From a virus (lineage: Duplodnaviria; Caudoviricetes), in IMG/VR virus record IMGVR_UViG_3300000727_000007, positions 27,921 to 91,920 of that record: DNA of 64,000 nt; one strand, written 5' to 3'. How positions within the stretch are numbered: the first letter of the stretch is position 1; every line of letters starts with the position of its first letter. Below, piece by piece: positions 1-62,379 of the stretch. The translations under genes were made by a program, and so were the position numbers. The notes beneath the pieces are model-generated. The model saw nothing but the letters and a program-made list of their open reading frames with translations. It ran no database searches and was not told where the DNA came from.

Positions 1-369
1 GGCGCAACAAACGCATGGAAGGCAATTGATTGGTTAATCAAAACCAATACAAAAGTTGACAGAGTAATGGTATTTTCAGACGAACAAGTATACAATACAG
101 ACCATCACTACATAGGATACAGTTGGGGTCCTAAAGACAAATCAGAAACCTTACAAGCAAAAATGCAAGTGTACAGAAACAAAATAAACCCTAACGCATA
201 CTTACACTCCTTCGACCTTTCTGGTTATCCAACAACCATGATACCTAATGACGACCCAAAATCAAATCTGGTTGCTGGTTGGAGCGAACAAATATTCAAT
301 TACATTGAATTGTATGAAAAAGGCTTTGCTACAATGGTAGATATTGTTGAAAACTATCCGGTGGATTAA
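1..369 (+). CDS. Ro60/TROVE-family RNA-binding protein, C-terminal vWA domain (5'-truncated by window edge)
   Basis: Frame is open from base 1: GATNAWKAIDWLIK..VDRVMVFSDEQ...YRNKINPNAYLHSFDLSGY...LVAGWSEQIF. This matches the TROVE-vWA pattern (T-N, VMIFTDxQ, DLxGY, AGWS). Confidence 0.82.
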   Translation, partial: GATNAWKAIDWLIKTNTKVDRVMVFSDEQVYNTDHHYIGYSWGPKDKSETLQAKMQVYRNKINPNAYLHSFDLSGYPTTMIPNDDPKSNLVAGWSEQIFNYIELYEKGFATMVDIVENYPVD

Positions 370-397
370 ACCCACCATTTTTATTTTAGGTGAAAAA

Positions 398-1090
398 ATG
401 GACGAAGAAGGTAAAAAGTTTTACGCAATAACAGAAGAATTAAAAATAATGCATGGTGAAATAGGGGAAGATTGTGATCTTTCATGGAAAGATTGCTTCG
501 ATATTATCGATGGTGACTTTTCGACTCTTTGTTATTATGCAAAAAGAGAAACAAATGATGAATCTAAAATTGTTATAGATACTTTAAATGAATTAGCACA
601 TGATGCAATCTTATGTAGAATTGCATATGAGAATGAAGATTTAAAGGGTCCACGTTTTGGCGAAATCATAGAAGATATGAAAAAGATACACGATGCAAAA
701 AGACACGACTATGCTTCTGATGAAGATAGGTTTTCGAACTTAGCTATATCAGAAAAAATGGGAATACCTGCATGGAAAGGTTGCCTTGTACGTATAAGCG
801 ATAAATATTCAAGACTTGATGAATTCACCAAGAAAGAAGAACTTATGGTAAAAGATGAAAGTATAACTGACACTCTAAATGATATGGCAAATTATGCAAT
901 AATCTGCAGAATCTTATATGAAAGAGGTCCACAGCCAGTAAAAGAAGGAATTGATATAACTGACCTATTTGATTCCCTTGGAGTCGATATGGAAGGTGTT
1001 GATATGACTGATTGGGATGCTGTAAAAGAAAGGTTATACAGTCAAGTATATGAAAAGAAAGTTTGTGGTTGCAATGGTGACAGTGATTAA
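398..1090 (+). CDS. Nmad1/DUF1599-like all-alpha nucleotide-pyrophosphatase-fold protein with a degenerate N-terminal duplicate domain
   Basis: KRHDY...VRISDKYSRL...ESITDTLNDMANYAII motif. RBS AGGTGA before ATG 398. Confidence 0.75.
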   Translation: MDEEGKKFYAITEELKIMHGEIGEDCDLSWKDCFDIIDGDFSTLCYYAKRETNDESKIVIDTLNELAHDAILCRIAYENEDLKGPRFGEIIEDMKKIHDAKRHDYASDEDRFSNLAISEKMGIPAWKGCLVRISDKYSRLDEFTKKEELMVKDESITDTLNDMANYAIICRILYERGPQPVKEGIDITDLFDSLGVDMEGVDMTDWDAVKERLYSQVYEKKVCGCNGDSD

Positions 1091-1427
1091 TAGCGATGTG
1101 TATAAAATCCTTGCACATCATTTTTTAGATAAACTAAAAGCACGTGCAAGTGCCGCAAGATATCTTGAAAAGGATTATTCAGTAAGACTTTATACTGTGG
1201 GTGTTTCTCCTAAGTTTGAAGCGTACCCACCAGACATTTCTAATTACGTTGATGTAAGTGCGCCACGAGGACACTTAGAAGATGCATACAATAATAGAGA
1301 TAAACAAAGAACTTTGGCTATAGTAGACAGAGAAAAAGTATTATATGATTCTATATCATTAATCCATTTCTATAAAACCAAAGAGAAATATGAAGCAATA
1401 AAAGATAAATACAAAAACGGGCATTAG
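1050..1427 (+). CDS. hypothetical protein (start uncertain; stop codon lies inside tRNA-Tyr)
   Basis: ORF fills the gap between the previous gene and the tRNA. Confidence 0.55.
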   Translation: MKRKFVVAMVTVINSDVYKILAHHFLDKLKARASAARYLEKDYSVRLYTVGVSPKFEAYPPDISNYVDVSAPRGHLEDAYNNRDKQRTLAIVDREKVLYDSISLIHFYKTKEKYEAIKDKYKNGH

Positions 1428-1591
1428 CGTAGAGGCCACGCGGTCGGCTGTAGAAGCAGGAGTATAAAACAAAACTATATCATGTATATCATTTAAAATC
1501 CCTTAATAAAATATAATCTCACTTGTATTCTTAGAATACAACTCTTGCTACAGATACCGATTATACCCCGGTTCAAATCCGGGATGTCCGA
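1418..1591 (+). tRNA. tRNA-Tyr(GUA) with 102-nt intron at position 37/38
   Basis: Acceptor CGGGCAT/ATGTCCG plus A73 (C1:G72, archaeal Tyr identity), D stem GCGT/ACGC, anticodon stem GTCGG/CCGAT, loop CT-GTA-G|A, T arm CCCGG-TTCAAAT-CCGGG. Confidence 0.95.
1454..1555 (+). other. archaeal-type tRNA intron bounded by canonical bulge-helix-bulge
   Basis: CUGU/ACAG 4-bp helix, AGA and AUA 3-nt bulges, closing helix AGCAGGAGU/ACUCUUGCU. Confidence 0.93.
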
Positions 1592-1604
1592 TTCAGGTGA
1601 TTAT

Positions 1605-1952
1605 ATGTTTAAAAAACTTGGCGAAAAATTAGGGTTAACACGAGAAAATATATTAGGCGCAAAATTTGAAAGTGATAGTAAAGACGAGGCATATTATGAT
1701 AGAAACCTTGCAATCCAACTAGCAGCTTATTTAGCTTACAGAGATGGATTTAACGTAGGGGTACGCGATAGAGATAGCGATTGGCCTATCATACAGATTG
1801 AATTGCCAACAGGACAAATAACATATCACATACCTAAAGATGAACTACTATTACTAAACGAAAGGAGATTCCGAGAACCTGCTTTACCTTGGGATGGACA
1901 CTCTTTAAGAGTAAAACAGGAAAGGATAAAACAATATTTGTCTCAGAGATGA
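1605..1952 (+). CDS. WDGH-motif phage protein
   Basis: Y-x-x-RN...W-P-I-I-Q-I-E-LPTGQITYH...WDGH. RBS AGGTGA immediately after the tRNA 3' end. Confidence 0.7.
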   Translation: MFKKLGEKLGLTRENILGAKFESDSKDEAYYDRNLAIQLAAYLAYRDGFNVGVRDRDSDWPIIQIELPTGQITYHIPKDELLLLNERRFREPALPWDGHSLRVKQERIKQYLSQR

Positions 1953-1962
1953 GACAAAATTT

Positions 1963-2036
1963 GCCGGTATAGCATAGTTTGGGAATGCGCTTGACTTGTA
2001 ATCAGGAGATCGGGGGTTCGATTCCCTCTGCTGGCT
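1963..2036 (+). tRNA. tRNA-Thr(UGU)
   Basis: GCCGGTA/TGCTGGC acceptor, U73, anticodon loop CT-TGT-AA, T arm GGGGG-TTCGATT-CCCTC; no encoded CCA. Confidence 0.95.
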
Positions 2037-2045
2037 TTTCTTTTT

Positions 2046-2120
2046 GGGAACATAATGTAGTCTGGTTATCAGGCCAGGTTTGGAACTTGGTCAGCATCGG
2101 TTCAAATCCGATTGTTCCCA
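2046..2120 (+). tRNA. tRNA-Pro(UGG), atypical (A37, weak D stem)
   Basis: GGGAACA/TGTTCCC plus A73, stem CCAGG/CTTGG, loop TT-TGG-AA, T arm ATCGG-TTCAAAT-CCGAT. Confidence 0.88.
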
Positions 2121-2167
2121 CTTATTTTAACAATATTTATAATATCAAAAAACCATAAAAGTAATAC

Positions 2168-2359: not shown

Positions 2360-3349
2360 TTGGCACAACACAAATTTGATTGGATTAAACATTCTGATGC
2401 TGTAGCAGATGACAGATTTGCACTTACTCAGGAAGATTTAGATAAAGTATACAGAATGGACCATCCAGAAATACAAAAACGTTTAACTTTTGTGCGAGAA
2501 ACAGCTTTACCTAGTGCATACAAGCTCGCTAATATGCCTAGTGTAAAAGATCAAGGAGATTTAGGGCTTTGTTTTGCATTTGCCGGGGCAGGAATCCAGC
2601 AATATTATTATCTCAATAATCCAACTATTAAGTCAGATTATGATTTATCCGAAATGTTTTTAGGTTATTGGTCAAGATACATATGCGAAGGTGGTGCACC
2701 AACTGGTGATAATGGTTCTACAATCATTGCTACTATGCAGGCACAACAACAATATGGAATATGTCTGGAAAAAACATGGACATATGTAGATGCGAAGGAA
2801 AATATTAAACCATCTGATGTAGCTGTTAAAGAAGCTTCACAATACGAAGTAGGAAAATACTTTGCAATCGATGAAGATGCAAATGTGACAACCAACATTA
2901 AGAAATCTATATATGCTGGAACACCAATTATGTATGGTTCAGAAGTACATCAATCTATTGACAATGTAGGCACTGATGGTATTGAACCGTATGCTAAATC
3001 ATCTAGCACATCTGATCCAGTAGTAGGCGGACACGCTAGATGGATTTACGGATGGGATGATACTAAAACGATAAAAGGAACAACCAAGAAAGGTGCATTC
3101 CTGGTAAGAAATTCTTGGGGAGGCTCTTGGGGTTGTTACGGAGACTCATGGGTTTCATATCAAGTATTCTTAGACCAAGAAACAGATCCAATGGGTATAA
3201 CCAGTGCGATAGCGCCAACTAATACTCCAACGCCCAGTCCAAACCTGGACCCTACAGCGGATATTAAATTGGTTAAAAATATCGTTTACGGTAGCTATAA
3301 CAACGCTACTAAAATTTCTAAAATTAAAAACATAGTGAGTAAGTATTAA
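2360..3349 (+). CDS. papain-like (C1A) cysteine peptidase
   Basis: DQGDLGLCFAFA (Q/C), GGHA (H), RNSWG (N); GGAGG RBS before TTG; PT-rich linker near the C-terminus. Confidence 0.88.
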   Translation: MAQHKFDWIKHSDAVADDRFALTQEDLDKVYRMDHPEIQKRLTFVRETALPSAYKLANMPSVKDQGDLGLCFAFAGAGIQQYYYLNNPTIKSDYDLSEMFLGYWSRYICEGGAPTGDNGSTIIATMQAQQQYGICLEKTWTYVDAKENIKPSDVAVKEASQYEVGKYFAIDEDANVTTNIKKSIYAGTPIMYGSEVHQSIDNVGTDGIEPYAKSSSTSDPVVGGHARWIYGWDDTKTIKGTTKKGAFLVRNSWGGSWGCYGDSWVSYQVFLDQETDPMGITSAIAPTNTPTPSPNLDPTADIKLVKNIVYGSYNNATKISKIKNIVSKY

Positions 3350-11900: not shown

Positions 11901-14390
11901 ATATCCGTTTGCACCAAATGTACGTGTTCCAGTAAGTCTTTGCCACTCTCCAGTCATTACAATAGCGGTTGTAGTTGTAGCGTCTATAAAAATACCGTTT
12001 GAATTTCTTTCATATATTTGAAGATTCATTCTATCTCCGGCAGTACCTTTTACCCATGCACTAAATGTATAGGTATGCCCTGGTAATACTGTATGATCCC
12101 ACCAATTTAGAGTCCTCAATCCTTGCTGAGGGAAGTTTGCAATTGTTGTGACTTTAGCACATCCTGCCCCTGAATGAGAAACTGTTGTATCATATGATAC
12201 AGTTTCAACACCTTGATATCGTGATAGTTTAGTACTAGGTCCTGTAACACTTTGTTCCATATCTCCACAAGTAGCTTGATTTGGATATAATTGGTTTTTG
12301 CTTAAGGTTTTATCATAGATTGTTAATTTGTTTTTAGATTGAACACTGTTATCATTTTCTACGGACATACTTGGGTATTGCCATGTTGTAGATGTTCCTT
12401 CAATTAATTGGAAAGCGTCTCCCCACCAAGTAATAGCTTGCGCACCTCCAATGGTATAAACTTGGCCTAAATATGTAGTTTTCCCACTAACGGTAGTGAT
12501 TTGAACAGATACTTGTTGCCATGAACCTGTTCCTGTTACATTAATATAAATTGTAGAGGTAACTCCATTTGTAAGATTAAAACGTACAGTCGCATTTACA
12601 GGTAACAATAACCATCCAGAGAAAGTATAAGTTGTATTAGGTTTTAGGTTAAACCATCCCGTGTTATATCCTTCACCATATGAAACTATTCCAGGTGTTG
12701 TACATTTAAAACTTCTTGTTCCTTGATAAGACTGAGATGTATCAGATGAAAGTATTTCGCCACCTGTTTGCCATCCAAAATAAGATGTATTTCCAAGTGC
12801 ATCTGTTCCACTAGCGACATTTGGATGTAATAAATTCCCTTGTGTCTCTGTAAGAGGCACTTGTGCTTTTACTTGATAGCTATCGCTAGGGTATTCCATA
12901 AACCATACATCATCTACATATACTGCATCACCAACATGTAATGTATTAGTTCCATTTACTGTCATACTCAAATTGTATGTACCTGATACTGTTGGAGTTA
13001 TGGTTCCTATTAATGTATCCCATCCACCTGTGAATGTTTTTGCACTAAAGAAATGATTAGAGCTTGCATAATTCACATTAAAGTAACAATAAGTTTCTTG
13101 ATTGTGATTATTTTTAAAATATTTAACCTTCATCATTGCTAAATATGTTTTTCCTGCTACCATTGGAATACTTAAGAAATTTGTAGTGAAATAATCGTCT
13201 TGTGGATTATTTATATCCGTTATTGTTATTTTAGCGCTTGCAGAACCATTATATTTTTCTGTTGTATCACGAGATAATGAAACTGATAATCCAGTTACAC
13301 CGTTTGCCCCAATTCCTGTTAAGTCTGTTTCAATAGCCTGTTGATTATAGCTAAGCATATTGCCTGGCTGCCATTCAGAAACTGTATTACCTAGTTCTAC
13401 TTGTATTTGTCCTACCCAGAAAGTTGCAACGTGTGCTGCTCCGGAATTAACAAAAGCAACCCCGTTGGTTGTTGCAGTACAAACCCAAGTATAAGATACG
13501 GATTGCCAATCACCATTACCAATAACAGGGGATTGTCCAATACCTGTAACAGTACAATAAATAGCTTCTCCAACAGTAGTTTTTATTTTAGCGGAAACAG
13601 TATAAGTTTGTCCCACAACTAATCCACGTGGCTTTATAAATACTCCTTGGTATTGTCCACCTGTATCAGTAACTACTTTTAAACTTCTATTACCACGATA
13701 ATAAACAGTAGAATCACTTGTAAATGTTCCACCGTTATTTTGATAAAATCCTGTTGTATCTCCGGTTGTATTTGTACAATTAGCTGCGTTTGCGTCAACT
13801 ATATTTCTTGGTGTAAATTGGTCTGAAACAGAAGCTATTTTATTATTAAAACTTAATTTTTCGCCTTGGAAATTTTGTTTAATACTAGGGTAAGTCCATG
13901 CTGTTGCACTAGACCCTTTTTCCATTTGTAATTCATCAACAAGAAAAGTTATAGCTTGTGGGGTTGAATTTGTCCTTATATATATTGACATTGAATACCC
14001 TGTTATTGATGGGGTAAATGAATATGTGATATATTGCCAATCTCCAGTACCAGTAAAAGCAGCATCTCCACTTCCACCACCAGCAGAATAAATTCTAAGA
14101 AGCATACCAGCACCTGCTGGTGCTTTTACCCTTGCAGAAATAGTATAAGTAGTTGCTTCATCAACATAAGGGTAAGATTGCGAATACATATTTTCATATG
14201 CAACAGTTCCAGAAGTAACTGCTTGTATACAACCTGTTCCACTATATTTATCACTTGTTATTCTACTTACAGTTACAGTAGAACTAGAACTAAAAAGTGC
14301 TGCACTATTTGAGACATCTCCACCGGTTGCAACATCGGGATGTAATAAATTCTTTGCTGTTTCATTTACTGTTACTATTTTGTCTACCAT
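8952..14390 (-). CDS. giant adhesin/fibre with nine CBM4/9-like carbohydrate-binding modules
   Basis: Nine modules, each starting NLLxPxxA-like and most ending QxExGxxATxWxYPS; acidic ~18-aa repeats at the C-terminus. Confidence 0.8.
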   Translation of the reverse strand: MVDKIVTVNETAKNLLHPDVATGGDVSNSAALFSSSSTVTVSRITSDKYSGTGCIQAVTSGTVAYENMYSQSYPYVDEATTYTISARVKAPAGAGMLLRIYSAGGGSGDAAFTGTGDWQYITYSFTPSITGYSMSIYIRTNSTPQAITFLVDELQMEKGSSATAWTYPSIKQNFQGEKLSFNNKIASVSDQFTPRNIVDANAANCTNTTGDTTGFYQNNGGTFTSDSTVYYRGNRSLKVVTDTGGQYQGVFIKPRGLVVGQTYTVSAKIKTTVGEAIYCTVTGIGQSPVIGNGDWQSVSYTWVCTATTNGVAFVNSGAAHVATFWVGQIQVELGNTVSEWQPGNMLSYNQQAIETDLTGIGANGVTGLSVSLSRDTTEKYNGSASAKITITDINNPQDDYFTTNFLSIPMVAGKTYLAMMKVKYFKNNHNQETYCYFNVNYASSNHFFSAKTFTGGWDTLIGTITPTVSGTYNLSMTVNGTNTLHVGDAVYVDDVWFMEYPSDSYQVKAQVPLTETQGNLLHPNVASGTDALGNTSYFGWQTGGEILSSDTSQSYQGTRSFKCTTPGIVSYGEGYNTGWFNLKPNTTYTFSGWLLLPVNATVRFNLTNGVTSTIYINVTGTGSWQQVSVQITTVSGKTTYLGQVYTIGGAQAITWWGDAFQLIEGTSTTWQYPSMSVENDNSVQSKNKLTIYDKTLSKNQLYPNQATCGDMEQSVTGPSTKLSRYQGVETVSYDTTVSHSGAGCAKVTTIANFPQQGLRTLNWWDHTVLPGHTYTFSAWVKGTAGDRMNLQIYERNSNGIFIDATTTTAIVMTGEWQRLTGTRTFGANGYNTQLNVCSSENYSVTFWTDDWQFEENATATVWEIPSYDPLYIQTKTTIPEIQKNLLNPNAATGGDVLNSASGIGKWKGTETITRITSDYHSGTGCIQIVTDTANSFEGANITMYAGKPNTSYTFSCWVKGTPGVIANLALVANASQNIYIGTFGTSSNITFNGTWQYATVTGVSQSNAAWVGVVVRTSGTIATTFLIDDLQLEEGTSATAWTYPSVVGLTDNPYPKVKTSVADQSIPVGNNVLPYNTQTCEADPMGLASWVANTGTGTFVRDTTEYYKGSASVKLTSSYVGVQSCTISASAQSLTPGKTYYWKAYTKSTGNNRQFRASAQFWVGGSVVSSATGSFTTLTDDWVYVSLVFTVPAGTTSVTPLISGSLGQGESVWYDEGWLVEYKEDSATMNAKVPVAEIQGNILQPYRADPTQWGVSGGGIISYSNDPDPIATVTNTSGTTKSDIHTYKGITQIIPGQTYTFQTLIKTNGSYNARATIVWYSSGSGGTYPFLSRTYGAITPINSTYSLLTVTGTAPAGANGCDNEIMILNVADGDSFTFKKCQLELGSTATAWIYPSLGASNDTGNMKNKLTVYDIENVKNKIHPNVATCGDELGNTTGMYSHTGIIGSYTVLERHSGTGCFRGDVNTNCTFKGLQPNNTMPSNGFPQYIKPSTVYTCSLWVKSQLTTQTKMYINAEAYNNGIWLSQTQSSKFDTSNEWTRLSVQITTPATANAICVSVRFDSLVVGDILWCDDVQVEEGTTLTDWVYPGASDTTTMSTSKTSPDLAMGSSDVNILNKVFAQTIAEFIEQNLQVSVNTCIPNNENMDLDIQARNVLTVPDKNELIETLITLYNYTKIQDGNTFSDNVKLNVTAVIGELGSILDSIREEIELNIEDIGQHDEQIKHIEIHRIYDKIEEIQDLFNLFAKIELDESVQIEELATIHNWFTITEEVSGIDDIGIIFLIIEYTVRILKNQEYKASIQKLFDTSILLPR

Positions 14391-20006: not shown

Positions 20007-20921
20007 CTAATATTTCTCCCTAATTGTTATTTTTAAATTAAAAGCGTTTGTTGCATTTCCTTCAAGTAAAGCGCCTATAGCTAATCCATTTGCTAAAAAT
20101 GCTCCTTCTACTTGGAAAGTTTTTGCACTTACCGCATTTACTCCGCCTGGGCTAGACGCGTCTGGGCTTTTAGGTACAGTGAAGGCTTCTCCATGTCTGC
20201 ACCAATAATTTGTTGAATCTGTAAAAGATTCAGTTAAATATAATTGCACGTTTACATCTGATTCTGTAGATAAATTCGCTATACTAATTAAATAAATATC
20301 TTTTAATTCAGTTGGCGGGGTAATTGTAAGTGTTTCTACTGTTCCAGCATTTGAAGAAGCTGAAAATACAATTGCTTGTTGTGTTACTATTGTATTAGAT
20401 ACAGTATGTTTTTCCAAGAGTTTTGCAACACTTTCTTCAGTTGCACAGTCTTTCCATTGTGAATCTTTATAAACCCTTGGTGTAACTCCTAAAACTCCGT
20501 TAGGGAATGTTAGTTGTCCAGTCTGTGTCTGAATTGATTCAAGAGCTGTTTTGTTTTCTCCTAGTAATGTTTGGATAGATTCCATTACTGTATTAAATGT
20601 ATCTGTTGTTAAAAGCTCATTTGATCTAATAGTTAGAGCTGGATGGCTAGCACCATCTAAAAGAATTTCTGCTCTTTGCTCAGAGGTGCTGTCTTTCAGC
20701 TCAACGGCACCTATCTCAAGGTCACCCGCATCAATAACTGCTTTAACACTTAAAGCACTTGTCGTCTCATCAAAATCTAACTTATTCAATTGAGCTAGTA
20801 TTTGGCTTATTGCCCCTGACTCTACAGCAGGGGTTATAGGATTACCATTTATGTCTGTTAATTTTAATCCATTAGTAAACGCTTCTAACAAAGCGTTAAG
20901 TATATCGGAACATTCTCCCAT
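20007..20921 (-). CDS. putative virion fibre/whisker protein
   Basis: GDLEIGAVELKD motif, short coiled coil, beta-rich C-terminal domain. Confidence 0.55.
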   Translation of the reverse strand: MGECSDILNALLEAFTNGLKLTDINGNPITPAVESGAISQILAQLNKLDFDETTSALSVKAVIDAGDLEIGAVELKDSTSEQRAEILLDGASHPALTIRSNELLTTDTFNTVMESIQTLLGENKTALESIQTQTGQLTFPNGVLGVTPRVYKDSQWKDCATEESVAKLLEKHTVSNTIVTQQAIVFSASSNAGTVETLTITPPTELKDIYLISIANLSTESDVNVQLYLTESFTDSTNYWCRHGEAFTVPKSPDASSPGGVNAVSAKTFQVEGAFLANGLAIGALLEGNATNAFNLKITIREKY

Positions 20922-21110
20922 CTATTTTCCCCCTACTTGTTGTTTTAATCTTTTAATTTCTTTCATCATTACAGCCATCTGTTCTTCCATTTCTTGCTGT
21001 TTTTGTAATTGCAAAGTTTTTGCTTTACGTTCCTTCATCTGTTCGTATTTTTCATGGGTTTGAACTTCTATTTTTACAAACCCATTACCTTTTGGTCTTA
21101 TTTCTGGCAT
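20922..21110 (-). CDS. small coiled-coil protein
   Basis: GGTGA RBS, abutting genes. Confidence 0.6.
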   Translation of the reverse strand: MPEIRPKGNGFVKIEVQTHEKYEQMKERKAKTLQLQKQQEMEEQMAVMMKEIKRLKQQVGGK

Positions 21111-21118
21111 ATTATCAC

Positions 21119-24100
21119 CTAATCTATTATAGGAATTAATCTGATTTCTCTAACAGAAGGAGAACTATCTTTTATATTTTCTCTTGTCATACAAATTCTT
21201 GCACGGATATATTTTCCATAAAATGGATAAGATTCTGTTCCGATACCTTCTATTCTTCCAATTTTTACAGTTTGAACTCCTGTGTTACCTTTTGTAGTTT
21301 TTATTAAGAAATAAGGTACACTGGTTAGTAAGATAGGGTTTCTAAGTTTGAAAATAACTTGAACATATCCTTCAGTTCCTTTTAAAGCAGGGAAATTATA
21401 AGCATCTATTTTTCCGCTTTCATCTGATGTTGTTGAAAGTATCAGTTGTAACTCTCCTTGACTTAGGATACCATTTGTCTTTATTAAACAACTTAGGTAG
21501 TTATAATTGGATAAATCAAGATTCTCTTGTTTGTACATAAGAACTCCAGTATCTGTGTTACTCATAACTAACTGGTTTACTTGTATTGAACTAGCATTTA
21601 ATGCAGAATCTGAAACTGTATCAACTAAAGAAGACACAACAACCTGAGTATCCTGACTTGAAGTACCAGTACTTGACATTGAATCTAATAATACTGTTTT
21701 ACCCATTACATCTTCATCAACATCTAAATAGAAGTTATATTCATCATCTTCGTATGCTGCTTCATAGTTACTGTAATCTACAGACCCATGATACATATCA
21801 GACAATCTTAAATCACTTATAATCTTTTTAAATACTGGTCTTCCATTTGAATCTACAGTACTTGCGTTTTCTAAGTTTACCCTAAGTGTTTTACCCATGT
21901 CTATTTCATCTTGTTCGGTTATTGGACTGTTAGCATATACAGTTAGCCATTCCCAATGACTGAAATCATTTGTATCGCTTCTTAATGCGCTTTGAATTAC
22001 TTGGTTTCCATCAAATGATGTGGTAACTAGACAACCAGAGTTATTATCTCCTGATGTAGCTAAGGTTGCTGAAATAGCGTACCCCTTAGAGCTTGAATAT
22101 TTTATTTGAGGACTACTATTATTAGAGCCTGGATTCATTGTTATTCTCCAAACAAATTTATCACCATTGTCTGGGAATTGGAAATTGCTTCCATACATTC
22201 TATAAAAGTTATTTCCACCATCGTTGGATACTTCTAATTTATAACTAGAACCTTTTGGTAAAGAAATATTAACATCCATAGTTACAGAATTAATTATAAA
22301 TTCTGTTTCAGTGATATTTGATTGAATAACTCCTGAACTAATTTGTACACCATCTTTTTCTGTTAATAGAGTTAAAGTTGCAGGCGCACCATTCTGGCTT
22401 TCTTCTATAGAATACATACCAGAATTTCCATTGATTTTAATACTCTTATTTGGAGGATATAATCCACTAACTAATAAATCATACGACCTATCTTTATATG
22501 GGTGTGCTCCCTCAGCTATTGTTGGAACCACTATATTTCTATCTTTTCTATAAGGTTTAAATATATATTCAGTAGTGTTACCATTTTTACCAGATATTGG
22601 GTGGAATATAACTAATAACAAGTACCAGCCAGGGTCTAACCATGTTGTTCCACTAAATTCACATGTCATAACTTGTGAAGTGTTTTTATTAGGCATTGTA
22701 TGTGGACTTAAAGCTCTCTTGTCAGAAATTTCCATTAAGTTTAAATTACTACCTGATTGTTCAAAAACAGCTATTTGGACATGAGAAGCGTTTTTATACC
22801 AGAAATGTCCTACTTGTGTTTGCATTAACAAACCGCCTTTTTTATTGTAGACAAAAGTTCCAATATAATGAGAACGTTTTCCTATAGTAATTTCATGATA
22901 AAAAGAACCAATTTCAGTAACTGGTCTATAATCACTCATATCTTGAGGGAAATGCTGTTGACTTTTGATTTTTGTTGATGTTGTTGTTTTCTTTAATTTT
23001 GCAACACCATTTGTAAGATCTGTATGGTCTAAGGTTGTTTTAGTTAAATCTATACCTGTATTATCTTTTAGTGTCCAAGTTTGTTTTTTACTTACTGTAT
23101 CGGATATTGTATATCCACCTACTGTCTCATCATAGGTGTCGGCAATTCCAATAGACGCAGAAGTGTCTTTAAAAGTATCTCCAATTAAATTATACTTTAT
23201 TCTTTTTGGAGCATTATATACCATCATCCAATTTGCTTCTTTTTCTAATCTTCTAATCCTTTCATCGTGGCTTCTTAATCTGTAAGCTCCTAAACTATCA
23301 TCTTGTGTTACATTCATTAATAAAGCACTGTTTACATTTTTAGGAACATATACTTTTGCTAATCGTAAATAACTACTTGGGATCTCGCTCTCTGGAATTT
23401 CTGGAACATTAGCTACATCACCACTGATTGCTTCATAAAATCCTTCTGGGGTTAGACAAACAATATCTATCCTATTACCATAATTTGAACCCGGGTCTAA
23501 TGTAATATGGGTATCTAAAGGTTGTATTTTCTCTCCTAACATCATCGCAAGAGATTTGTTGATATTAAATGTAGTTGCACTACCATATCCAACTTTAAAC
23601 CATAAATCTGCTCCAATTTCATTATATACTGAATCGTTATCTGATTCAGCTAAGGAACTATTATATCCTCCAGTTGAATCATATAAGACACTGATACCTG
23701 CAATATTTGTTCTTTCTATAGTTAGGAATAAAGGAATAGCTGGCAGGTGGTCTATATTAATTGGTAAAGAATATTCGTTTGTTCCTGGTGTTACAGGGAT
23801 ACTTACAGTTTTTAGAAAAGGTATAGTACTCAACTGTGTTATTCCATTTGATAGTTTTACAGTGACGTTACAACTTGTATTTGTTTCATTTTTAAATTGT
23901 AATGTGATGTTTGTAATAGAAGATTTTTGAGTATCAATTTGTTGTATTAAATATAGTTGCTCTAAAGACTTCCATGAATCTCCATTTGTATTCTTTTGGT
24001 CTATTATAGCATCGTTTGCGTTTGCTACTGGAGATAAAAGAAAAGCGTTTTCCTCTGGACTCAATACAAACTTTTTACCAAATCCATCTATGATTAATTG

Positions 24101-24202
24101 GTCTAGGGATTGCCCTATATTATCCTGCATAGCATTCATATCTCTAGCACTTGCTGTCCAGCCAGGGATAAAACTTGAAATCATTGTGTAATAATTAACC
24201 AT
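21119..24202 (-). CDS. tail fibre / baseplate-associated structural protein
   Basis: RIDIVCLT..G...G...P..P...LAKVYVP module and RIRRLE coiled coil; position after the baseplate genes. Confidence 0.65.
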   Translation of the reverse strand: MVNYYTMISSFIPGWTASARDMNAMQDNIGQSLDQLIIDGFGKKFVLSPEENAFLLSPVANANDAIIDQKNTNGDSWKSLEQLYLIQQIDTQKSSITNITLQFKNETNTSCNVTVKLSNGITQLSTIPFLKTVSIPVTPGTNEYSLPINIDHLPAIPLFLTIERTNIAGISVLYDSTGGYNSSLAESDNDSVYNEIGADLWFKVGYGSATTFNINKSLAMMLGEKIQPLDTHITLDPGSNYGNRIDIVCLTPEGFYEAISGDVANVPEIPESEIPSSYLRLAKVYVPKNVNSALLMNVTQDDSLGAYRLRSHDERIRRLEKEANWMMVYNAPKRIKYNLIGDTFKDTSASIGIADTYDETVGGYTISDTVSKKQTWTLKDNTGIDLTKTTLDHTDLTNGVAKLKKTTTSTKIKSQQHFPQDMSDYRPVTEIGSFYHEITIGKRSHYIGTFVYNKKGGLLMQTQVGHFWYKNASHVQIAVFEQSGSNLNLMEISDKRALSPHTMPNKNTSQVMTCEFSGTTWLDPGWYLLLVIFHPISGKNGNTTEYIFKPYRKDRNIVVPTIAEGAHPYKDRSYDLLVSGLYPPNKSIKINGNSGMYSIEESQNGAPATLTLLTEKDGVQISSGVIQSNITETEFIINSVTMDVNISLPKGSSYKLEVSNDGGNNFYRMYGSNFQFPDNGDKFVWRITMNPGSNNSSPQIKYSSSKGYAISATLATSGDNNSGCLVTTSFDGNQVIQSALRSDTNDFSHWEWLTVYANSPITEQDEIDMGKTLRVNLENASTVDSNGRPVFKKIISDLRLSDMYHGSVDYSNYEAAYEDDEYNFYLDVDEDVMGKTVLLDSMSSTGTSSQDTQVVVSSLVDTVSDSALNASSIQVNQLVMSNTDTGVLMYKQENLDLSNYNYLSCLIKTNGILSQGELQLILSTTSDESGKIDAYNFPALKGTEGYVQVIFKLRNPILLTSVPYFLIKTTKGNTGVQTVKIGRIEGIGTESYPFYGKYIRARICMTRENIKDSSPSVREIRLIPIID

Positions 24203-24211
24203 TTAATCACC

Positions 24212-24625
24212 TTATTCTGATGTTAATGAGATTATAATATCTATTTTTAATTGTACACTACTGTTTTTAGTGAATGGAGCAATCTGACAGATTGCGAGAG
24301 GGATACCTTCCCCTAAAATATCTGTTGTAAATATAGCAACTTCTTTTATTACAGCACTATTTGTAATGTTTGTTTGACTAAATATTGCTTCTAATACAAC
24401 CCTTTCGTTTTCTTCATCATAAGTCGCTGTGATTGGAACTCTACTATATGTTCCATGTGTACTTGGGTCACATTCTAATCCTAATCTTGTACTATCTACA
24501 GTTGGAACTGTATCTGAGATTCCGCATCCTGCATACCCAAATTGAATTGGGTTTGCGTCATTAGGAAAACTATTTTTAAGAATTTGCATTCTTCCTTCAG
24601 TAGTTATTACTTCTATAAGAGTCAT
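24212..24625 (-). CDS. tail-collar/fibre attachment-like protein
   Basis: ITTEG...GCG...PT....L..E...R.....IKEVAIF pattern. Confidence 0.65.
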   Translation of the reverse strand: MTLIEVITTEGRMQILKNSFPNDANPIQFGYAGCGISDTVPTVDSTRLGLECDPSTHGTYSRVPITATYDEENERVVLEAIFSQTNITNSAVIKEVAIFTTDILGEGIPLAICQIAPFTKNSSVQLKIDIIISLTSE

Positions 24626-24728
24626 CTTTTTCCTCCTTTTGTTCCTGTGTTTCAGGGACTATTTCATTTCCATTCGTATCTAACGCATGGACTATAGTTT
24701 TTAAATTAAAATTCAAATTTTTAATCAT
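24597..24728 (-). CDS. 43-aa ORF, possibly the split N-terminal strand of the collar protein
   Basis: MIKNLNFNLKTIVHALDTNGNEIVPETQEQKEEKDDSYRSNNY; fills the gap and overlaps both neighbours. Confidence 0.45.
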   Translation of the reverse strand: MIKNLNFNLKTIVHALDTNGNEIVPETQEQKEEKDDSYRSNNY

Positions 24729-27700
24729 TATAAAAAGCCTCCCTAAATACTCTAAATCTACTAATTTTTGGGCTGTAATAAAGATTACTTGTACTTAAAT
24801 ATCCTCTTATTTTTATGTCAGAATATTCTAAGCCATGTAAATCATCTGGAGAACTTAAATTGCTTTTAATCACATATGGAGTATATATTTTATGCATCAA
24901 AGCAAAATTATTTTCTTTTTTCCAAAATACATACCCATTTACCATTACAATTGTTTTTTCTGGATTCTGAGCGGTGCTAATTTTATAATAATTTGAATTA
25001 TCTAATTTTCCTGTACGTTCAACTAAAATTCCATAAGAATGATTTGTGTTTAACCCACGTACATCTAAATTAATTTCTTTAGCCCCTGTGCTCCAATCAT
25101 ATACAATAAAACTATCTAATATTTCGTTTGGACTTAAATCAGGATTTAATGTGCATAATGAAATACGTACATCGTCTGTAGGGTTTCCTACGACTCCTGA
25201 ACTATATAAAGTAACTCCACTGATAGATGAAATGCCTGGTTTTGTAATTTGGAATATACTTTTGCTATCAGCTACCCCAAATGATGTATAAGAATTTGAA
25301 GTTGTTTGTTGAAAGACAATTCTTTCTTTTATAATTTCATAATTGAGTTTACAAGATTTGGGAACATTTTCAGCTAAACTATGTTGGAATTTTGTCCATC
25401 TACTGTTTGAACCATCTTTTATAGCTTTAATTCGGTTAGTTTGTATTGAAGCTGTTTTTTGTCTGAAAAAGACATTCACTTTACACCATGCAACCGCAAC
25501 TTCTTTATCTCTTCTTACGTGCCATTCTGGATTAGTCATTCCATGTCCCATAAACATTAAGACCTTTAATTTACCTAAAGTATCTTTAGTCAGCTTTTTA
25601 CCCCATGTATCATCCGGCCCACCAAAACTAACTATTCTAGCTTCATCAGAGGCATTAGCTTTTCTTTTGTAAATGTAAGAACCATTTGCAGCGTACATGT
25701 TATCATAGTCAGAATTATAAGCTCCGCCTGTATTTATGTTTAAATTAATTACAGGACCAGAAGCAGGTCTTTCACCACAATTACAAGTTCCTCCGGTTCC
25801 ACAAGTAAATGTTGACCCACCATATTTTTGTAAATTTGACCTTTCAGTTTTAATATACAAATCAACTTGAAGTCCTGTGATAATACAATCATCTGGGATA
25901 TCGTTTGTTATATTAAAATTGTCCATAACTAAAAGCTCTGTTTCTGCATAAGAAGTAGCGTCTGATACAATTGTTTTTACTGCTCCTGCACCGTTAATTG
26001 CCCCAAAATTTTTCCATTTTATTTCATCATCATGCCCGTGAATATAACAAGAGTTTATATGTCTTCCTCCGTCACGATTTGAAGAATAAGCACGATTAGC
26101 AATATTAGAAATAGATTTAACGCCTGTATCAATTTTTAATATATTTTTGCTTCCAATACTATCTGTTTTAATATTGTTAAAAGCAAAATTGCTAAAGTGA
26201 TCTTTTGTATAAGCATCTAATGCAGTTACATAACTAGAAACAGATATATTTTGTTTTAAATTAAGTTTCATTTCTGGCAGGCTCATATCAGCTTCCATAT
26301 AAGAAACAGAAGCCCCCATTTGTAATTTACAAATTCCTTCCTCACCCGCTGAAGCTTTCATTTTAAGATCAAATTCTTTCTCGTAAACCCCTGTTGGGTC
26401 ATCTGCATTCACTGAAAGATTTCCTAAATATAAATCTCCTGATTTAATAGCGTAAGAAGAAATCCCTTCTGTACCTAATTTTTTACATTTTTTTAATATG
26501 GTATTGATTTCATCGTTTGTTAAAACACAAAAATTAGCTGGTAAAGGCCATGGGATATCTGCTCTGAAAACTCCTGGTACATATAAATCTCCTGACCAGT
26601 ACTTAGAATCCCAATCTTCTCTATCTAAAAATACAATATATTCCCACATGTTTTTTATTTGTGGAATTCTTCCTAGATATCCGTATAATTCTGATTTTAT
26701 TAAACCAAACCTTTTGTATGTACCTTCTGTTAATAGGTACTGTACTTCGTAACATAATCCATTTTCTGGGTTATTTAAATATGTTGCAGTTACAAGTTTT
26801 GATTCTCTGTTTATTTTTCGGATAAATTTTCGTATTTCATCAAAGTAATATACTTCACTTATATATTCTTTCTCCAATGTTGTTTCTTCTAAAGCTAAAA
26901 TATCTTGAGTTCCATCTGTATATGTTGAAATTGTAATGTTATGAAGTCCTGGTTTATCTGAATCTAATTTAATAATCCTATTTCCGTTTGAATCTTTTAT
27001 GTATACAGTATTTACAAAAACGTTATTATCTATAATAGCGTTACTTGGTTCTATTTCATCCTTTGGTATATCTTCTTCATAATCAAGAGCATCTTCTAAA
27101 ATAACTGAATTGTTTGTTCCGACTTCACTTTCGTTTGAAGCTTCTATTCTTGTTGTATATTCTTCTGATAAACGTTTTTCTAACCAATAGTCTTGTTCAT
27201 ATTCAAATGGGTAGCCCACAGGAAAAGTATAAGCATATTTATAATACGGAACTACTGTACAGTATTTTTGCCTAAACATACTGAAATCTTTTGCATGTAC
27301 ATCAAGAGCTTTATTTGGTTTATATTTGACATCTGTTTCGGCGTAACTAACAGGAAATCCAACTTTTTTAACAGCGTCAAAGAAATGCCATTCTACTTCA
27401 ACATAGAATTTTTGAGGTAATGAATGAAAATCAATATCTACTGCTGGTATATCCATACGATAGCACACATACTTCTTTTCTTTTATGAACTTCATCCCTT
27501 TTATTAAAGACCCATCATCCTTGTATAATCTGAACGCTTTTAGTGGATATAGTTTATCTGCAAGTGCCTTTGCGTGTAATTGGTCAAGACTAACCTTATC
27601 AAATTCATAAGTTAGCATAACTGTATTAGGTATAGCTATTTCTTCCGCATAATCACTATCATCAGGGTCAATACATGGAACGCACGTCTCTTTTTCTACA

Positions 27701-55512: not shown

Positions 55513-56247
55513 TTATGGTTGTAAATACTCTAATACTTGACAGAAAGTAGCAAATTTACGTCTCATGAAAATATTTTGCTTAATAACATCATCAGTATAA
55601 AATAAATCATAAATATTCTTAAAAAAATCATAATTCTTAACTGATTTCTGAAAAATAAAAGAACCATTCATAGGCGACACCTTATTTGTACAACCAATAT
55701 AGTCACGGAAGCCTTCGCATACTTTTTCTGTTCCGACAATGCTGAAATAAGGATATCCTCTTTTGCTTATACCGATAGAACCATCCGCTTCGAACAACCC
55801 TCTCCAAAAATGGGATTGATACTCCCCACAATCTATCGGTTCTACATATTTTGACTTCTTCCCGATAGGAACTCCTATTTCGAGCAACCGTGTTTTTATT
55901 TTTAAGGAAGTAACCTCTAATCTTGACTTATTTAAGTTACTACCTGGGAAAAATTCTTGGATAAACTCCAAAACACCTCTATCATCACCATCTAAACCAA
56001 TTATGAAAGAATTAGAAGTCCAAGGGATATGTCCATCACCAGAAATCCATCCTAAAATCCAAGCCTGCTCTGGACCAATCTCATCAAAAAAATCATCATA
56101 ACACCGTACTATTATTCCACGATGTTTATTTGGCATATATCTTTTAAGTCTATTTGATATTGACGCTTGCGGTCTGTGATAAATAAAACCTATTTCTCGT
56201 TGCTTTAGTCCATACTGTTTTAATCCTAGTATACTATAATCTTCCAT
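55513..56247 (-). CDS. free-standing HTH-LAGLIDADG homing-endonuclease-like protein
   Basis: AWILGWISGDGHI and FWRGLFEADGSI motifs; N-terminal HTH; leaderless. Confidence 0.85.
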   Translation of the reverse strand: MEDYSILGLKQYGLKQREIGFIYHRPQASISNRLKRYMPNKHRGIIVRCYDDFFDEIGPEQAWILGWISGDGHIPWTSNSFIIGLDGDDRGVLEFIQEFFPGSNLNKSRLEVTSLKIKTRLLEIGVPIGKKSKYVEPIDCGEYQSHFWRGLFEADGSIGISKRGYPYFSIVGTEKVCEGFRDYIGCTNKVSPMNGSFIFQKSVKNYDFFKNIYDLFYTDDVIKQNIFMRRKFATFCQVLEYLQP

Positions 56248-58782: not shown

Positions 58783-58943
58783 TTAGCTACCTCCGCTTTA
58801 ACTATATTTCTGATTGCTTCTACATGTTCTAAAATTTCTTTTGCTGCTGGCTCAGAGGATATATAGTGGAGTTGATCCTCCACATCCATCATAGTAAAGT
58901 CTACAAGAGCCATTACATTTTTAATCCCTGTTTTTCTAGTCAT
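58779..58943 (-). CDS. 54-aa hypothetical protein (not in ORF track)
   Basis: MTRKTGIKNVMALVDF...AEVAK; ATGA overlaps at both ends. Confidence 0.55.
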   Translation of the reverse strand: MTRKTGIKNVMALVDFTMMDVEDQLHYISSEPAAKEILEHVEAIRNIVKAEVAK

Positions 58944-59377
58944 AAGAAAATCGCCCTGATAGCATCTTTAAGGTCACCAAAGTAACCTCTAATTTTCTGC
59001 CATAGTGAGATCGCAGTTTCATCAGTGTATAATCTTAACTGGCCTGTTATTCTGTCTATTTCTTTGTTATCCCATGGACCAATACCAAGGCATGTCATAG
59101 TTCCTTCTTCAACTTCAGTTAATCCAGCATCTACAACTGCAAAGCATGGTAATTCAGCCATGTTGTTTGCTAAGTAATAATACCATTTAAGGTCTATTAG
59201 ATTTTCTACTTCTAACACTACTACTCTTTCTAAATCATTCGCCCATTTCTTTTGTATGTCTTTATCCATTGCTTCAGCAGATTTAAAAGCACCATGCCCG
59301 GCGTGTACACATTGCGCTCCCATTTTTCCACTGCTTGTACCTAAGTCTTTTCTATAGAGTATTACTAGTTTTGTCAT
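58940..59377 (-). CDS. pth2: peptidyl-tRNA hydrolase, Pth2 (archaeal/eukaryal type)
   Basis: RKDL..SSGKMGAQCVHA, VVL.V, DAGLTEV..GT.TCLGIGP, ID.ITG.L.L. Confidence 0.92.
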   Translation of the reverse strand: MTKLVILYRKDLGTSSGKMGAQCVHAGHGAFKSAEAMDKDIQKKWANDLERVVVLEVENLIDLKWYYYLANNMAELPCFAVVDAGLTEVEEGTMTCLGIGPWDNKEIDRITGQLRLYTDETAISLWQKIRGYFGDLKDAIRAIFL

Positions 59378-59379
59378 TA

Positions 59380-59763
59380 TTAACACCTAAATATTTTTCT
59401 TATTAAATAATCTTCTTCTTTTTTATTTTCTTTATAAGTTCTAACCCGTGGACAACTAATATCTCCACATTTATCGGGACCAATACAGAAACAAACCTTT
59501 GGTTCCTTCTTATTTACATATTCATACTTATCGAAAGAACATTTCTCTTTTTTGGGTTTAATCCTGGTAATTACATCCTTAATTACATTTTCATCAGGAG
59601 TCCTGTTGATTGCAGGTATTACTTCTCTGTCAATTTTTATAGCTTTATTTTCTTCTATCTTTTCTGTTGCATTACTCCCACAAAGTGGACATACTGCATT
59701 CATATTCATGTACTTTACTGGTACAAATCTTCTTTCACAATTCCTACAATAATAATCACTCAT
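59380..59763 (-). CDS. zinc-ribbon protein
   Basis: YYCRNCERRF...CPLCGS plus a second Cys cluster. Confidence 0.65.
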   Translation of the reverse strand: MSDYYCRNCERRFVPVKYMNMNAVCPLCGSNATEKIEENKAIKIDREVIPAINRTPDENVIKDVITRIKPKKEKCSFDKYEYVNKKEPKVCFCIGPDKCGDISCPRVRTYKENKKEEDYLIRKIFRC

Positions 59764-62106: not shown

Positions 62107-62379
62107 ATGGAAAGTATAGGAATGAAGATACATGCGTTAACTTGTGACCATAAAGGGCGTGAGTTCAGGCAAACTGGTAAATGGATAAATGGTTTAGTTG
62201 ATAATATAACTGATAAACCATGTGTGCCTACATTAGCACATATATTAACTAAATGTAATCATGATAATCTACATTTAATAGGTATTACATGGGATACTAC
62301 ATTAGAAAAACACTTTATATGTAAAGATTGTGGTGAACAAATAACTATGTGTGATACAGAGGTTGATTATGATGAGTAA
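62107..62379 (+). CDS. Cys/His-rich putative Zn-binding protein
   Basis: CDH, CNH, CKDCG motifs; GAGGTGA RBS. Confidence 0.65.
   Translation: MESIGMKIHALTCDHKGREFRQTGKWINGLVDNITDKPCVPTLAHILTKCNHDNLHLIGITWDTTLEKHFICKDCGEQITMCDTEVDYDE

What the first reader, a model, noticed from the sequence alone, without database searches (positions are those of the whole stretch)
1..2120. Archaeal virus encoding a Ro60/TROVE protein beside a tRNA cluster: possible viral RNA quality-control system
Seen: the frame open from base 1 carries the C-terminal vWA motifs of TROVE proteins, and three tRNAs follow within 2 kb on the same strand; Pth2 lies at 59 kb. Known: Ro60/Rsr binds Y RNAs (bacterial YrlA RNAs mimic tRNA), often sits near RtcB RNA-repair genes and is linked to tRNA damage; it is characterised in animals, some bacteria and a few bacteriophages. 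Inference: this virus carries a module that protects, repairs or replaces tRNA and rescues translation against host anticodon-nuclease defences. I know of no characterised Ro60 RNP in an archaeal virus.
Basis: partly seen in the sequence, partly recalled or inferred. Interest (0 to 1): 0.8.

Follow-up and report, generated by a model that had tools for sequence, protein, structure and literature searches.

The report
Methanogen virus Ro60, Y RNAs, tRNAs
A tailed virus of methane-producing archaea carries a complete Ro60 RNA-surveillance protein with its own small partner RNAs, inside an island of 26 tRNA genes and an RNA-end repair enzyme; this is a real but not unprecedented viral kit for keeping translation running.

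Summary
All three observations hold.

- **Ro60 gene.** Window 1-369 is the last 122 residues of a 512/529-aa gene that starts about 1.2 kb upstream. It is a complete Ro60: TROVE ring plus a vWA domain with an intact MIDAS motif.
- **tRNAs.** Three tRNAs follow on the same strand: Tyr with a 102-nt archaeal-type intron, Thr and Pro.
- **PTH2.** It lies at 58940-59386 (-).

The host is archaeal, probably Methanobacteriaceae.

There are 23 more tRNAs, giving 26 in all and covering all 20 amino acids. An RlaP RNA 3'-end repair nucleotidyltransferase sits inside the array. Three to four Y-RNA-like genes lie directly before Ro60. Their stem covaries, and a model built from it finds more than 300 same-strand matches beside TROVE genes in bacteria and viruses.

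No RtcB or other RNA ligase was found in this 69%-complete record. A complete related virus has a CCA-adding enzyme, Y RNAs, Ro60, tRNAs, RlaP and PTH2 in one island.

The reading as a tRNA and translation maintenance module is supported by gene content only. The anticodon-nuclease target is inference.

It is not a first. TROVE genes are on record in HGTV-1, Asgard viruses, Borgs and jumbo phages, and this scan noted an archaeal-virus Ro60 before on other DNA. Verdict: new member of a known kind.

The parts
1..369 (+). C-terminal 122 residues (vWA domain end, MIDAS T and D) of the Ro60/TROVE gene. The full gene is G000 26751(26700)-28289, starting 1170-1221 nt before the window.
398..1090 (+). 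Gene just downstream of Ro60, with two DUF1599 ('nucleotide modification associated domain 1') repeats. The likely start is ATG 398, behind an AGGTGA ribosome-binding site. Its role in the module is unknown.
1050..1427 (+). 125-aa ORF with no family match.
1418..1591 (+). Archaeal-type tRNA-Tyr(GUA): C1-G72 pair, short variable loop, and a 102-nt intron at 1454-1555. The intron sits in a bulge-helix-bulge (two 3-nt bulges 4 bp apart) after position 37.
1605..1952 (+). WDGH-domain protein (PF25311, 30.1 bits), function unknown. The likely start is ATG 1605, behind a GGTGAT ribosome-binding site.
1963..2036 (+). tRNA-Thr(UGU).
2046..2121 (+). tRNA-Pro(UGG).
58940..59386 (-). Peptidyl-tRNA hydrolase PTH2 (archaeal/eukaryotic type), in a distant module on the other strand.
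   Evidence: Adjacency of PTH2 to RlaP in relative G002:

Best explanation
This is a PhiF1-related tailed virus of Methanobacteriaceae-type methanogens. It encodes a self-contained Ro60-Y RNA particle inside a roughly 10-kb translation-maintenance island (G000 about 20.4-30.1 kb, all on one strand). The island holds 26 tRNAs for all 20 amino acids, including an archaeal initiator and an intron-bearing tRNA-Tyr. It also holds an RlaP nucleotidyltransferase, three collinear Y-RNA-like genes plus one tRNA-shaped one, and then Ro60. Proposed working, by analogy and not shown here: the Ro60 ring binds the conserved Y-RNA stem on its outer face and threads the 3' ends of misfolded or nicked structured RNAs (tRNA, rRNA) through its hole. 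The variable Y-RNA 'cargo' loops, some tRNA-like, recruit a host enzyme. RlaP re-adds nucleotides lost from damaged 3' ends. The host's own RtcB and CCA-adding enzyme finish the repair; the host ligase is needed anyway to splice the viral tRNA-Tyr. The viral tRNAs replace lost host tRNAs, and PTH2 recycles tRNA from stalled peptidyl-tRNA. Together these keep translation going during infection, whether the RNA damage comes from host defence or from the virus itself.
For: Protein: the AF2 model has pLDDT 91.4 and pTM 0.90. Full-length Foldseek matches to Ro60 structures reach TM 0.78/0.76, including Thermus phage phiLo Ro60. MIDAS residues D322, S324, S326, T393 and D417 are invariant in 35 homologues. 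Y RNAs: a repeated motif lies in the 745-nt gap before the gene and again before the 53%-identical gene in L004. In 13 units from 7 loci, 87% of cells are paired and 13 of 16 pairs show compensatory changes. No shuffle out of 500 reaches this, and slid controls give 44-52%. Model R1 gives 329 matches at E<=0.1 in TROVE loci, all but one on the TROVE strand, and none in the 64-kb window or in L002. Island: 25 tRNAs by ARAGORN plus Tyr. RlaP scores 128.7 bits. The viral tRNAs read 48 of 61 codons, which is 83% of viral codons. Recurrence: HGTV-1 has RtcB, an intron-bearing tRNA, TROVE and RlaP. The complete virus G002 has CCA-adding enzyme+HD, four R1 hits, TROVE, tRNAs, RlaP and PTH2. RlaP homologues lie on the TROVE strand in 14 other loci. 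tRNA arrays flank TROVE in 6 of 9 IMG/VR loci. RlaP adds 1-2 nucleotides to damaged RNA 3' ends and restores aminoacylation of repaired tRNA (bioRxiv 10.64898/2025.12.29.696909). Host: the terminase large subunit (TerL) matches only PhiF1 (39%, 3e-93) and HGTV-1 among 50,697 phage records, and a Methanobacteriaceae MAG protein at 54%. There is a pseudomurein-binding repeat, and the Tyr and initiator tRNAs are of archaeal type.
Against: There is no binding, expression or activity data. No RtcB and no RNA ligase or polynucleotide kinase was seen among the larger ORFs scanned. ORFs without a family match could hide one, and the record is only 69% complete. PTH2 is not linked to the island in this virus. 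The closest cultured relative, PhiF1, has neither TROVE nor RlaP, so the module is accessory. Rfam YrlA and Y_RNA models do not recognise the RNAs. PNPase, the known bacterial effector, has no counterpart identified here.
Confidence: 0.6

Rival explanations
1. The Ro60-Y RNA particle is a decay tool, not a repair tool. It hands structured host RNA (rRNA, tRNA) to a host exonuclease so the virus can shut off the host and recycle ribonucleotides into DNA. The viral tRNA array then compensates for the loss of host tRNAs.
For: The only mechanistically defined bacterial role of Rsr/Y RNA is to specialise PNPase for degrading structured RNA (PMC4201824). The virus also encodes NrdD, thymidylate synthase, thymidylate kinase, dCTP deaminase, MazG-like NTP pyrophosphatases and a DHH/DHHA1 phosphoesterase of the nanoRNase type. 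This set fits nucleotide salvage.
Against: The recurrent neighbours are RlaP, CCA-adding enzyme, RtcB and PTH2. These rebuild or recycle tRNA rather than destroy it. No nuclease gene is linked to Ro60 here.
Confidence: 0.2
2. The Y RNAs are the active agents. They act as tRNA-like decoys or sponges, stabilised by Ro60, that soak up host tRNA-targeting nucleases or tRNA-binding factors.
For: One unit is shaped like a whole tRNA, with acceptor, T and long variable arms kept in the minimum-energy fold. Another unit carries a T-arm-like hairpin. tRNA-length 'tRNAs' of 122-127 nt containing the motif recur in L015 and L018. YrlA is a known tRNA mimic (PMC4201824).
Against: Two of the four units have short or non-tRNA-like loops. 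No tRNA-targeting defence gene of the host is known here. This is pure inference.
Confidence: 0.1
3. There is no functional module. The tRNA array only adjusts codon supply for an AT-rich virus, and Ro60, RlaP and PTH2 are independent accessory genes that happen to accumulate in the same variable region.
For: PhiF1 lacks TROVE and RlaP. PTH2 is 58 kb away in this virus. Several TROVE-bearing viral contigs lack RlaP, RtcB and PTH2.
Against: The same combination recurs in distantly related viruses with only 31-39% TROVE identity, always on one strand. Many of the negative contigs are fragments of 11-36% completeness.
Confidence: 0.1

Closest known systems
Bacterial and phage Rsr (Ro60) with YrlA/Yrn1 Y RNAs (D. 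radiodurans, S. Typhimurium, M. smegmatis, mycobacteriophages; Chen et al. 2014, PMC4201824; Thermus phage phiLo Ro60, PDB 9l5y)
   Same: It has a full TROVE ring plus vWA/MIDAS. Several small RNA genes lie next to the gene on the same strand, each closed by a conserved bulged stem, and some have tRNA-like parts. The stem model built here also matches RNAs beside more than 100 bacterial TROVE genes.
   Different: The host is an archaeon. The Rfam YrlA model scores at most 20.6 bits against a 69-bit cut-off, and those weak hits fall on true tRNAs. There is no RtcB/RtcA operon. The effector (PNPase in bacteria) is unidentified. One unit carries the two stem halves in swapped order inside a tRNA body.
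Halogranum tailed virus 1 (HGTV-1, NC_021328) genes 126-140
   Same: This is an archaeal tailed virus with a TROVE protein (31.8% identity, E 2e-61), RlaP (123 bits), an intron-bearing tRNA and many tRNAs. The same RNA motif, with an 8/8-bp complementary partner, lies in the gap just before its TROVE gene.
   Different: HGTV-1 carries its own RtcB and lacks PTH2. It is a haloarchaeal myovirus with only 21.6% TerL identity. Its Y RNA is not annotated.
Phage counter-RNase RNA-repair systems (ROT/TROVE, RlaP, RtcB/Rnl ligases, CCA-adding enzyme; Iyer et al. 2021, PMC7824862)
   Same: It has the same parts list (TROVE, RlaP, tRNAs) and the same proposed logic: repair or replace tRNA cut by host RNases.
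   Different: No ligase, kinase or phosphoesterase partner was found in this record. At 92 kb or more it is not a jumbo phage, and the host is archaeal.
Ro60/TROVE genes reported in Nidhogg Asgard-archaeal viruses (bioRxiv 10.1101/2021.07.29.454249) and in Borgs (PMC11208441)
   Same: A TROVE+vWA protein is encoded by a virus or element of archaea, and an RNP with Y RNA has been suggested.
   Different: Those reports name no partner RNA. Here candidate Y RNAs are located and supported by covariation.

Membership tests
Ro60 / Rsr (TROVE + vWA) | TROVE domain profile match | tested here: met
   PF05731 scores 105.9 bits against a cut-off of 23. phmmer finds PDB TROVE/Ro60 chains at E 1.7e-31 to 1e-5.
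Ro60 / Rsr (TROVE + vWA) | Closed alpha-helical (HEAT-like) ring followed by a vWA domain, over the full length | tested here: met
   The AF2 model has pLDDT 91.4 and pTM 0.90. Foldseek gives TM 0.78/0.76 over about 544 columns to 9nfa and 1yvp, and the next non-Ro60 hits cover the vWA domain only.
Ro60 / Rsr (TROVE + vWA) | MIDAS motif DxSxS...T...D in the vWA domain | tested here: met
   D322, S324, S326, T393 and D417 are invariant in A1. Pfam vWA_Ro60 scores 26.8 bits, just under its 27.7 cut-off.
Ro60 / Rsr (TROVE + vWA) | Binds Y RNA and misfolded RNA | not testable with these tools
   This needs RIP-seq or EMSA.
Y RNA (bacterial YrlA/Yrn1 kind) | Encoded beside the Ro60 gene on the same strand, often in several copies | tested here: met
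   The units lie at L003 12115-12188, 12407-12520 and 12540-12701, ending 50 nt before the start codon.
Y RNA (bacterial YrlA/Yrn1 kind) | 5' and 3' ends form a conserved stem with an internal loop or bulge, kept by compensatory change | tested here: met
   87.3% of cells are paired, 13 of 16 pairs change on both sides, and 0 of 500 shuffles reach this. The alignment was made by me around the motif, so it leans towards the structure. The independent matches offset this.
Y RNA (bacterial YrlA/Yrn1 kind) | Match to Rfam YrlA (RF02553) or Y_RNA | tested here: not met
   There is no hit in the gap at E<=10. RF02553 reaches at most 20.6 bits in the record, on true tRNAs. It is also sub-threshold (37 bits) beside bacterial TROVE genes.
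Y RNA (bacterial YrlA/Yrn1 kind) | tRNA-like domain in at least one Y RNA | tested here: inconclusive
   The third unit has a T-arm-like hairpin. The element at L003 12196-12374 keeps acceptor, T and variable arms in its minimum-energy fold, but the swapped-order stem is not in that fold.
Rsr-RtcB-RtcA RNA repair operon | RtcB ligase encoded with Ro60 | tested here: not met
   PF01139 is absent from the 91.9-kb record, while the controls ring in 10 of 14 genomes. The record is 69% complete.
RlaP (PF10127) RNA-repair nucleotidyltransferase | Profile match over the full length | tested here: met
   128.7 bits, profile positions 13-248 of 249.
PTH2 peptidyl-tRNA hydrolase | Profile match over the full length | tested here: met
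   95 bits, profile positions 2-115 of 115.
Tailed virus of Methanobacteriales (PhiF1-like) | Hallmark genes closest to methanogen viruses, and archaeal host signatures | tested here: met
   The evidence is TerL and the prohead protease-like protein matching PhiF1, a Methanobacteriaceae MAG homologue at 54%, and a pseudomurein-binding repeat. It also includes the bulge-helix-bulge intron, the C1-G72 tRNA-Tyr and the A1:U72 initiator tRNA.

The most novel reading that the evidence does not exclude
In archaea there is no PNPase partner. This viral Ro60 would then work through a different, still unknown effector recruited by tRNA-shaped Y RNAs, for example the archaeal exosome, RNase P/Z or the CCA-adding enzyme. 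With the full tRNA set, RlaP and PTH2 it would form a portable translation-rescue system that defeats a tRNA-directed archaeal defence. That would be a new branch of Ro/Y-RNA biology, testable in the cultured HGTV-1/Halogranum pair.
Probability: 0.2. Interest if true: 0.7.

Novelty: new member of a known kind. Interest (0 to 1): 0.45.

Why it matters
Ro60/Y-RNA particles have been studied in animals and a few bacteria, and their role in viruses is unknown. This locus gives a compact case in which the protein, its candidate RNAs, a full tRNA set and an RNA-end repair enzyme are encoded together by an archaeal virus. The same RNA motif sits before the TROVE gene of HGTV-1, which has a cultured host. 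The question 'what does a viral Ro60 RNP do?' could therefore be tested at the bench. The stem model also flags many unannotated Y-RNA candidates beside bacterial TROVE genes that Rfam misses.

Tried and rejected
- Pfam on the 122-aa fragment alone gave nothing; the full ORF was needed.
- Rfam at gathering and at E<=10 gave no Y_RNA or YrlA hit in the gap. RF02553 searched directly reached at most 20.6 bits, on real tRNAs.
- RtcB was absent. Among the ORFs scanned, no RNA ligase, kinase or phosphoesterase turned up. The upstream 20 kb is DNA replication and nucleotide metabolism.
- PhiF1, the closest cultured relative, has neither TROVE nor RlaP.
I therefore could not fetch the 134.8-kb contig that carries the identical protein, or the 122-kb and 69.5-kb contigs of the 57-58% relatives.
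The best 80 cellular loci found in genome contigs are all bacterial.
- I considered that the third 'tRNA' (window 1418-1591) might itself be a tRNA-like Y RNA. I rejected this: it is a canonical tRNA-Tyr with a bulge-helix-bulge intron and lacks the stem motif.
- Complex prediction was not used, because RNA partners cannot be scored.
Full report
**Where the window lies.** The window is G000:C1:27921-91920 of a 91,920-bp IMG/VR record. The record is classed as a provirus and estimated 69% complete. I read the 28 kb upstream as loci L001-L003. Coordinate offsets are: window = G000 - 27920, and L003 = G000 - 14000.

**The protein.**
- The open frame at window 1-369 has no Pfam match by itself.
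- It is the end of an ORF at G000 26700-28289. The public gene call (P0001, 512 aa) and the homologue consensus both start at the second ATG, G000 26751.
- The full ORF matches TROVE at 105.9 bits and vWA_Ro60 at 26.8 bits, against a 27.7 cut-off.
- It matches solved TROVE/Ro60 chains by sequence.
- An AlphaFold2 model built from 35 homologues has pLDDT 91.4 and pTM 0.90.
- The model superposes over its whole length on Ro60 structures: 9nfa and 1yvp at TM 0.78/0.76, Thermus phage phiLo Ro60 (9l5y), and D. radiodurans Rsr (2nvo). Beyond these, only vWA domains match.
- The MIDAS residues are invariant.

**The tRNAs and the host.**
- Downstream lie tRNA-Thr and tRNA-Pro.
- A third tRNA at 1418-1591 is found by Rfam with a 105-nt insertion in the anticodon loop. 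It folds as a cloverleaf. Two 3-nt bulges are separated by a 4-bp helix; this is my reading of the dot-bracket and matches the archaeal bulge-helix-bulge splice motif.
- ARAGORN with introns calls it tRNA-Tyr(GUA) with a 102-nt intron after position 37.
- It has C1-G72 and a 5-nt variable loop. By established knowledge these mark archaeal/eukaryotic tRNA-Tyr rather than bacterial.
- One of the two CAU tRNAs has A1:U72 and GGG/CCC in the anticodon stem, the archaeal initiator pattern.
- Among 50,697 phage records, the terminase large subunit (TerL) matches only Methanobacterium virus PhiF1 (39.4%, 3e-93) and HGTV-1.
- The only named homologue of this terminase in the large protein collection is from a Methanobacteriaceae MAG, at 54% identity.
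- A 250-aa protein in the island has a pseudomurein-binding repeat.

'Archaeal virus' is supported, and a Methanobacteriaceae host is likely.

**The island upstream.**
- ARAGORN finds 23 more tRNAs at G000 20400-25256 on the same strand. With Tyr, Thr and Pro that makes 26, covering all 20 amino acids.
- Under standard wobble they read 48 of 61 codons, or 83% of the virus's own codons.
- Inside the array is a 260-aa RlaP nucleotidyltransferase (PF10127, 128.7 bits).
- RlaP adds one or two nucleotides to damaged RNA 3' ends and is needed to restore aminoacylation of over-trimmed repaired tRNA (bioRxiv 10.64898/2025.12.29.696909).
- Further upstream come NrdD, thymidylate synthase, an ERCC4 nuclease, a split DnaE with UDG, thymidylate kinase and dCTP deaminase. 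That region is DNA metabolism, not RNA repair.
- RtcB is absent.

**Partner RNAs.**
- The 745-nt gap between a 177-aa secreted-looking ORF and Ro60 holds four copies of a motif of the form UGYG-(N11-12)-UACUUC.
- Three of the copies have a downstream complementary strand followed by ...AUUCUCC... and a closing stem.
- The 53%-identical gene in viral contig L004 is preceded by five such units.
- Single or multiple units also precede the TROVE genes of L015, L018, L020 and L028. One lies in the unannotated gap before HGTV-1 gene 129.
- In an alignment of 13 units, the three-helix structure I propose is 87% paired. Compensatory changes occur in 13 of 16 pairs. No shuffle out of 500 reaches this, and slid controls give 44-52%.
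- A covariance model built from the alignment (R1) matches its training units by construction.
- R1 also gives about 300 further matches at E<=0.1 in metagenomic, viral and bacterial TROVE loci. In total 328 of 329 matches are on the TROVE strand. Most, by eye, lie just before or after the gene. There are none in the 64-kb window or in L002.

These RNAs therefore carry the general Ro-associated stem of bacterial-type Y RNAs. The Rfam YrlA model does not reach its threshold on them, nor on the bacterial ones.

The fourth motif copy lies inside a 177-nt tRNA-shaped element at L003 about 12196-12374, with the two stem halves in swapped order. Its minimum-energy fold keeps acceptor, T and long variable arms but not the swapped stem. 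I did not resolve it further; another follow-up of this scan deals with it.

**Is it a module?**

| Virus | Order of elements |
|---|---|
| HGTV-1 | RtcB, intron-bearing tRNA-Asp, [motif], TROVE, HNH, RlaP |
| G002 (complete 79-kb virus with terminal repeats; TROVE 39% identical) | class-II CCA-adding enzyme head plus HD protein, four R1 matches, TROVE, six tRNAs, RlaP, PTH2 directly after RlaP, more tRNAs including two of about 110 nt |

- RlaP homologues lie on the TROVE strand in 14 further loci, several of them bacterial.
- tRNA arrays on the TROVE strand occur in 6 of 9 IMG/VR TROVE loci.
- These recurrences support a functional link between Ro60, tRNA supply and repair, and, through G002, PTH2.
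- I ran no statistical control, and many contigs are fragments.
- In the present virus PTH2 is 58 kb away among small late-region genes.
- PhiF1 has neither TROVE nor RlaP.

**What is shown and what is inferred.**
- Shown computationally: the fold and motifs of Ro60, the covarying RNAs, the gene content and its recurrence, and the archaeal host signatures.
- Inferred from work on Xenopus, Deinococcus, Salmonella and Mycobacterium Ro60: that the stem is the Ro60 binding site, that the loops recruit an effector, and that damaged tRNA or rRNA is the substrate.
- That the trigger is a host anticodon nuclease is a published hypothesis for phages (PMC7824862), not something seen here.
- The host's own RtcB, which is near-universal in archaea and present in all four archaeal control genomes, could supply the ligase. 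It must in any case splice the viral tRNA-Tyr.
- A decay or nucleotide-salvage role is a serious rival, given the NrdD pathway and a DHH phosphoesterase.

**Novelty.**
- Ro60 orthologues and YrlA RNAs in mycobacteriophages have been known since 2014 (PMC4201824).
- TROVE with RlaP and RNA ligases in jumbo phages was reviewed in 2021 (PMC7824862).
- A phage Ro60 structure has been deposited (9l5y).
- 101 GenBank phage records match this protein.
- For archaea, HGTV-1 gene 129 is annotated as TROVE. Nidhogg Asgard viruses are reported to encode Ro60 (bioRxiv 10.1101/2021.07.29.454249). Borgs have a core TROVE protein (PMC11208441).
- I found no paper that identifies Y RNAs or characterises a Ro60 RNP in an archaeal virus.
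- This scan has already noted an archaeal-virus Ro60 with an upstream Y-like RNA on other DNA, and the Y RNAs of this very genome.

I therefore rate it a new member of a known kind. Its value lies mainly in the complete, compact island and in the link to a cultivable system.

Noticed in passing
window 1454-1555: The 102-nt intron of the viral tRNA-Tyr is long for a bulge-helix-bulge intron. It is AU-rich and has an internal hairpin. Splicing must rely on host EndA and RtcB.
   Followed up: partly
L003 11940-12090 (G000 25940-26090): This may be a degenerate fifth Y-like unit overlapping the end of the 177-aa ORF. A 22-nt inverted repeat (73%) has a 3' arm resembling the Y-RNA 3' strand. Model R1 does not detect it.
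   Followed up: no
L003 11422-11955 (G000 25422-25955): A 177-aa ORF with a signal-peptide-like N-terminus, a Cys-rich zinc-ribbon-like middle and an Asn/Thr-rich stretch. It is wedged between the tRNA array and the Y RNAs and has no family match.
   Followed up: no
L015 9379-9505, L018 412-533, L094 5658-5784: Rfam calls 'tRNAs' of 122-127 nt beside TROVE genes. The L015 one contains the UGYG...UACUUC motif in its anticodon region, so it looks like a tRNA-shaped Y RNA. L094 is from a bacterial (Blackallbacteria) MAG.
   Followed up: partly
L005 5908-7054: The complete relative G002 has a 240-aa class-II (bacterial/eukaryotic type) CCA-adding enzyme head and a separate 153-aa HD protein, just before its Y RNAs and TROVE gene. 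This is odd if its host is archaeal, and the host was not settled.
   Followed up: partly
L093-L172 (e.g. L166 7860-8182, L128 8156-8815, L157 7561-8562): Bacteroidota and other bacterial TROVE genes are followed by arrays of 3-7 matches to the stem model R1. Rfam leaves these unannotated, and its YrlA model scores only about 37 bits beside them.
   Followed up: partly
window 55513-56247 (-): A LAGLIDADG-like homing endonuclease ORF lies next to the terminase gene.
   Followed up: no
window 2360-3349 and G000 20851-21603: A papain-family (C1) peptidase and a pseudomurein-binding-repeat protein with weak endolysin PHROG matches. They are probably lysis or wall-binding functions interleaved with the tRNA island.
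   Followed up: no
window 62351-62797: A SLOG/DprA-like (YAcAr) domain protein near the record end. A 33.7%-identical stretch occurs in the HGTV-1 locus, at L173 2083-2331.
   Followed up: no
P0004 and P0138: A 57%-identical TROVE protein and a 48%-identical terminase are each recorded on a contig of 122,136 bp. It is probably the same related virus, so Ro60 may be stable in this lineage.
   Followed up: no
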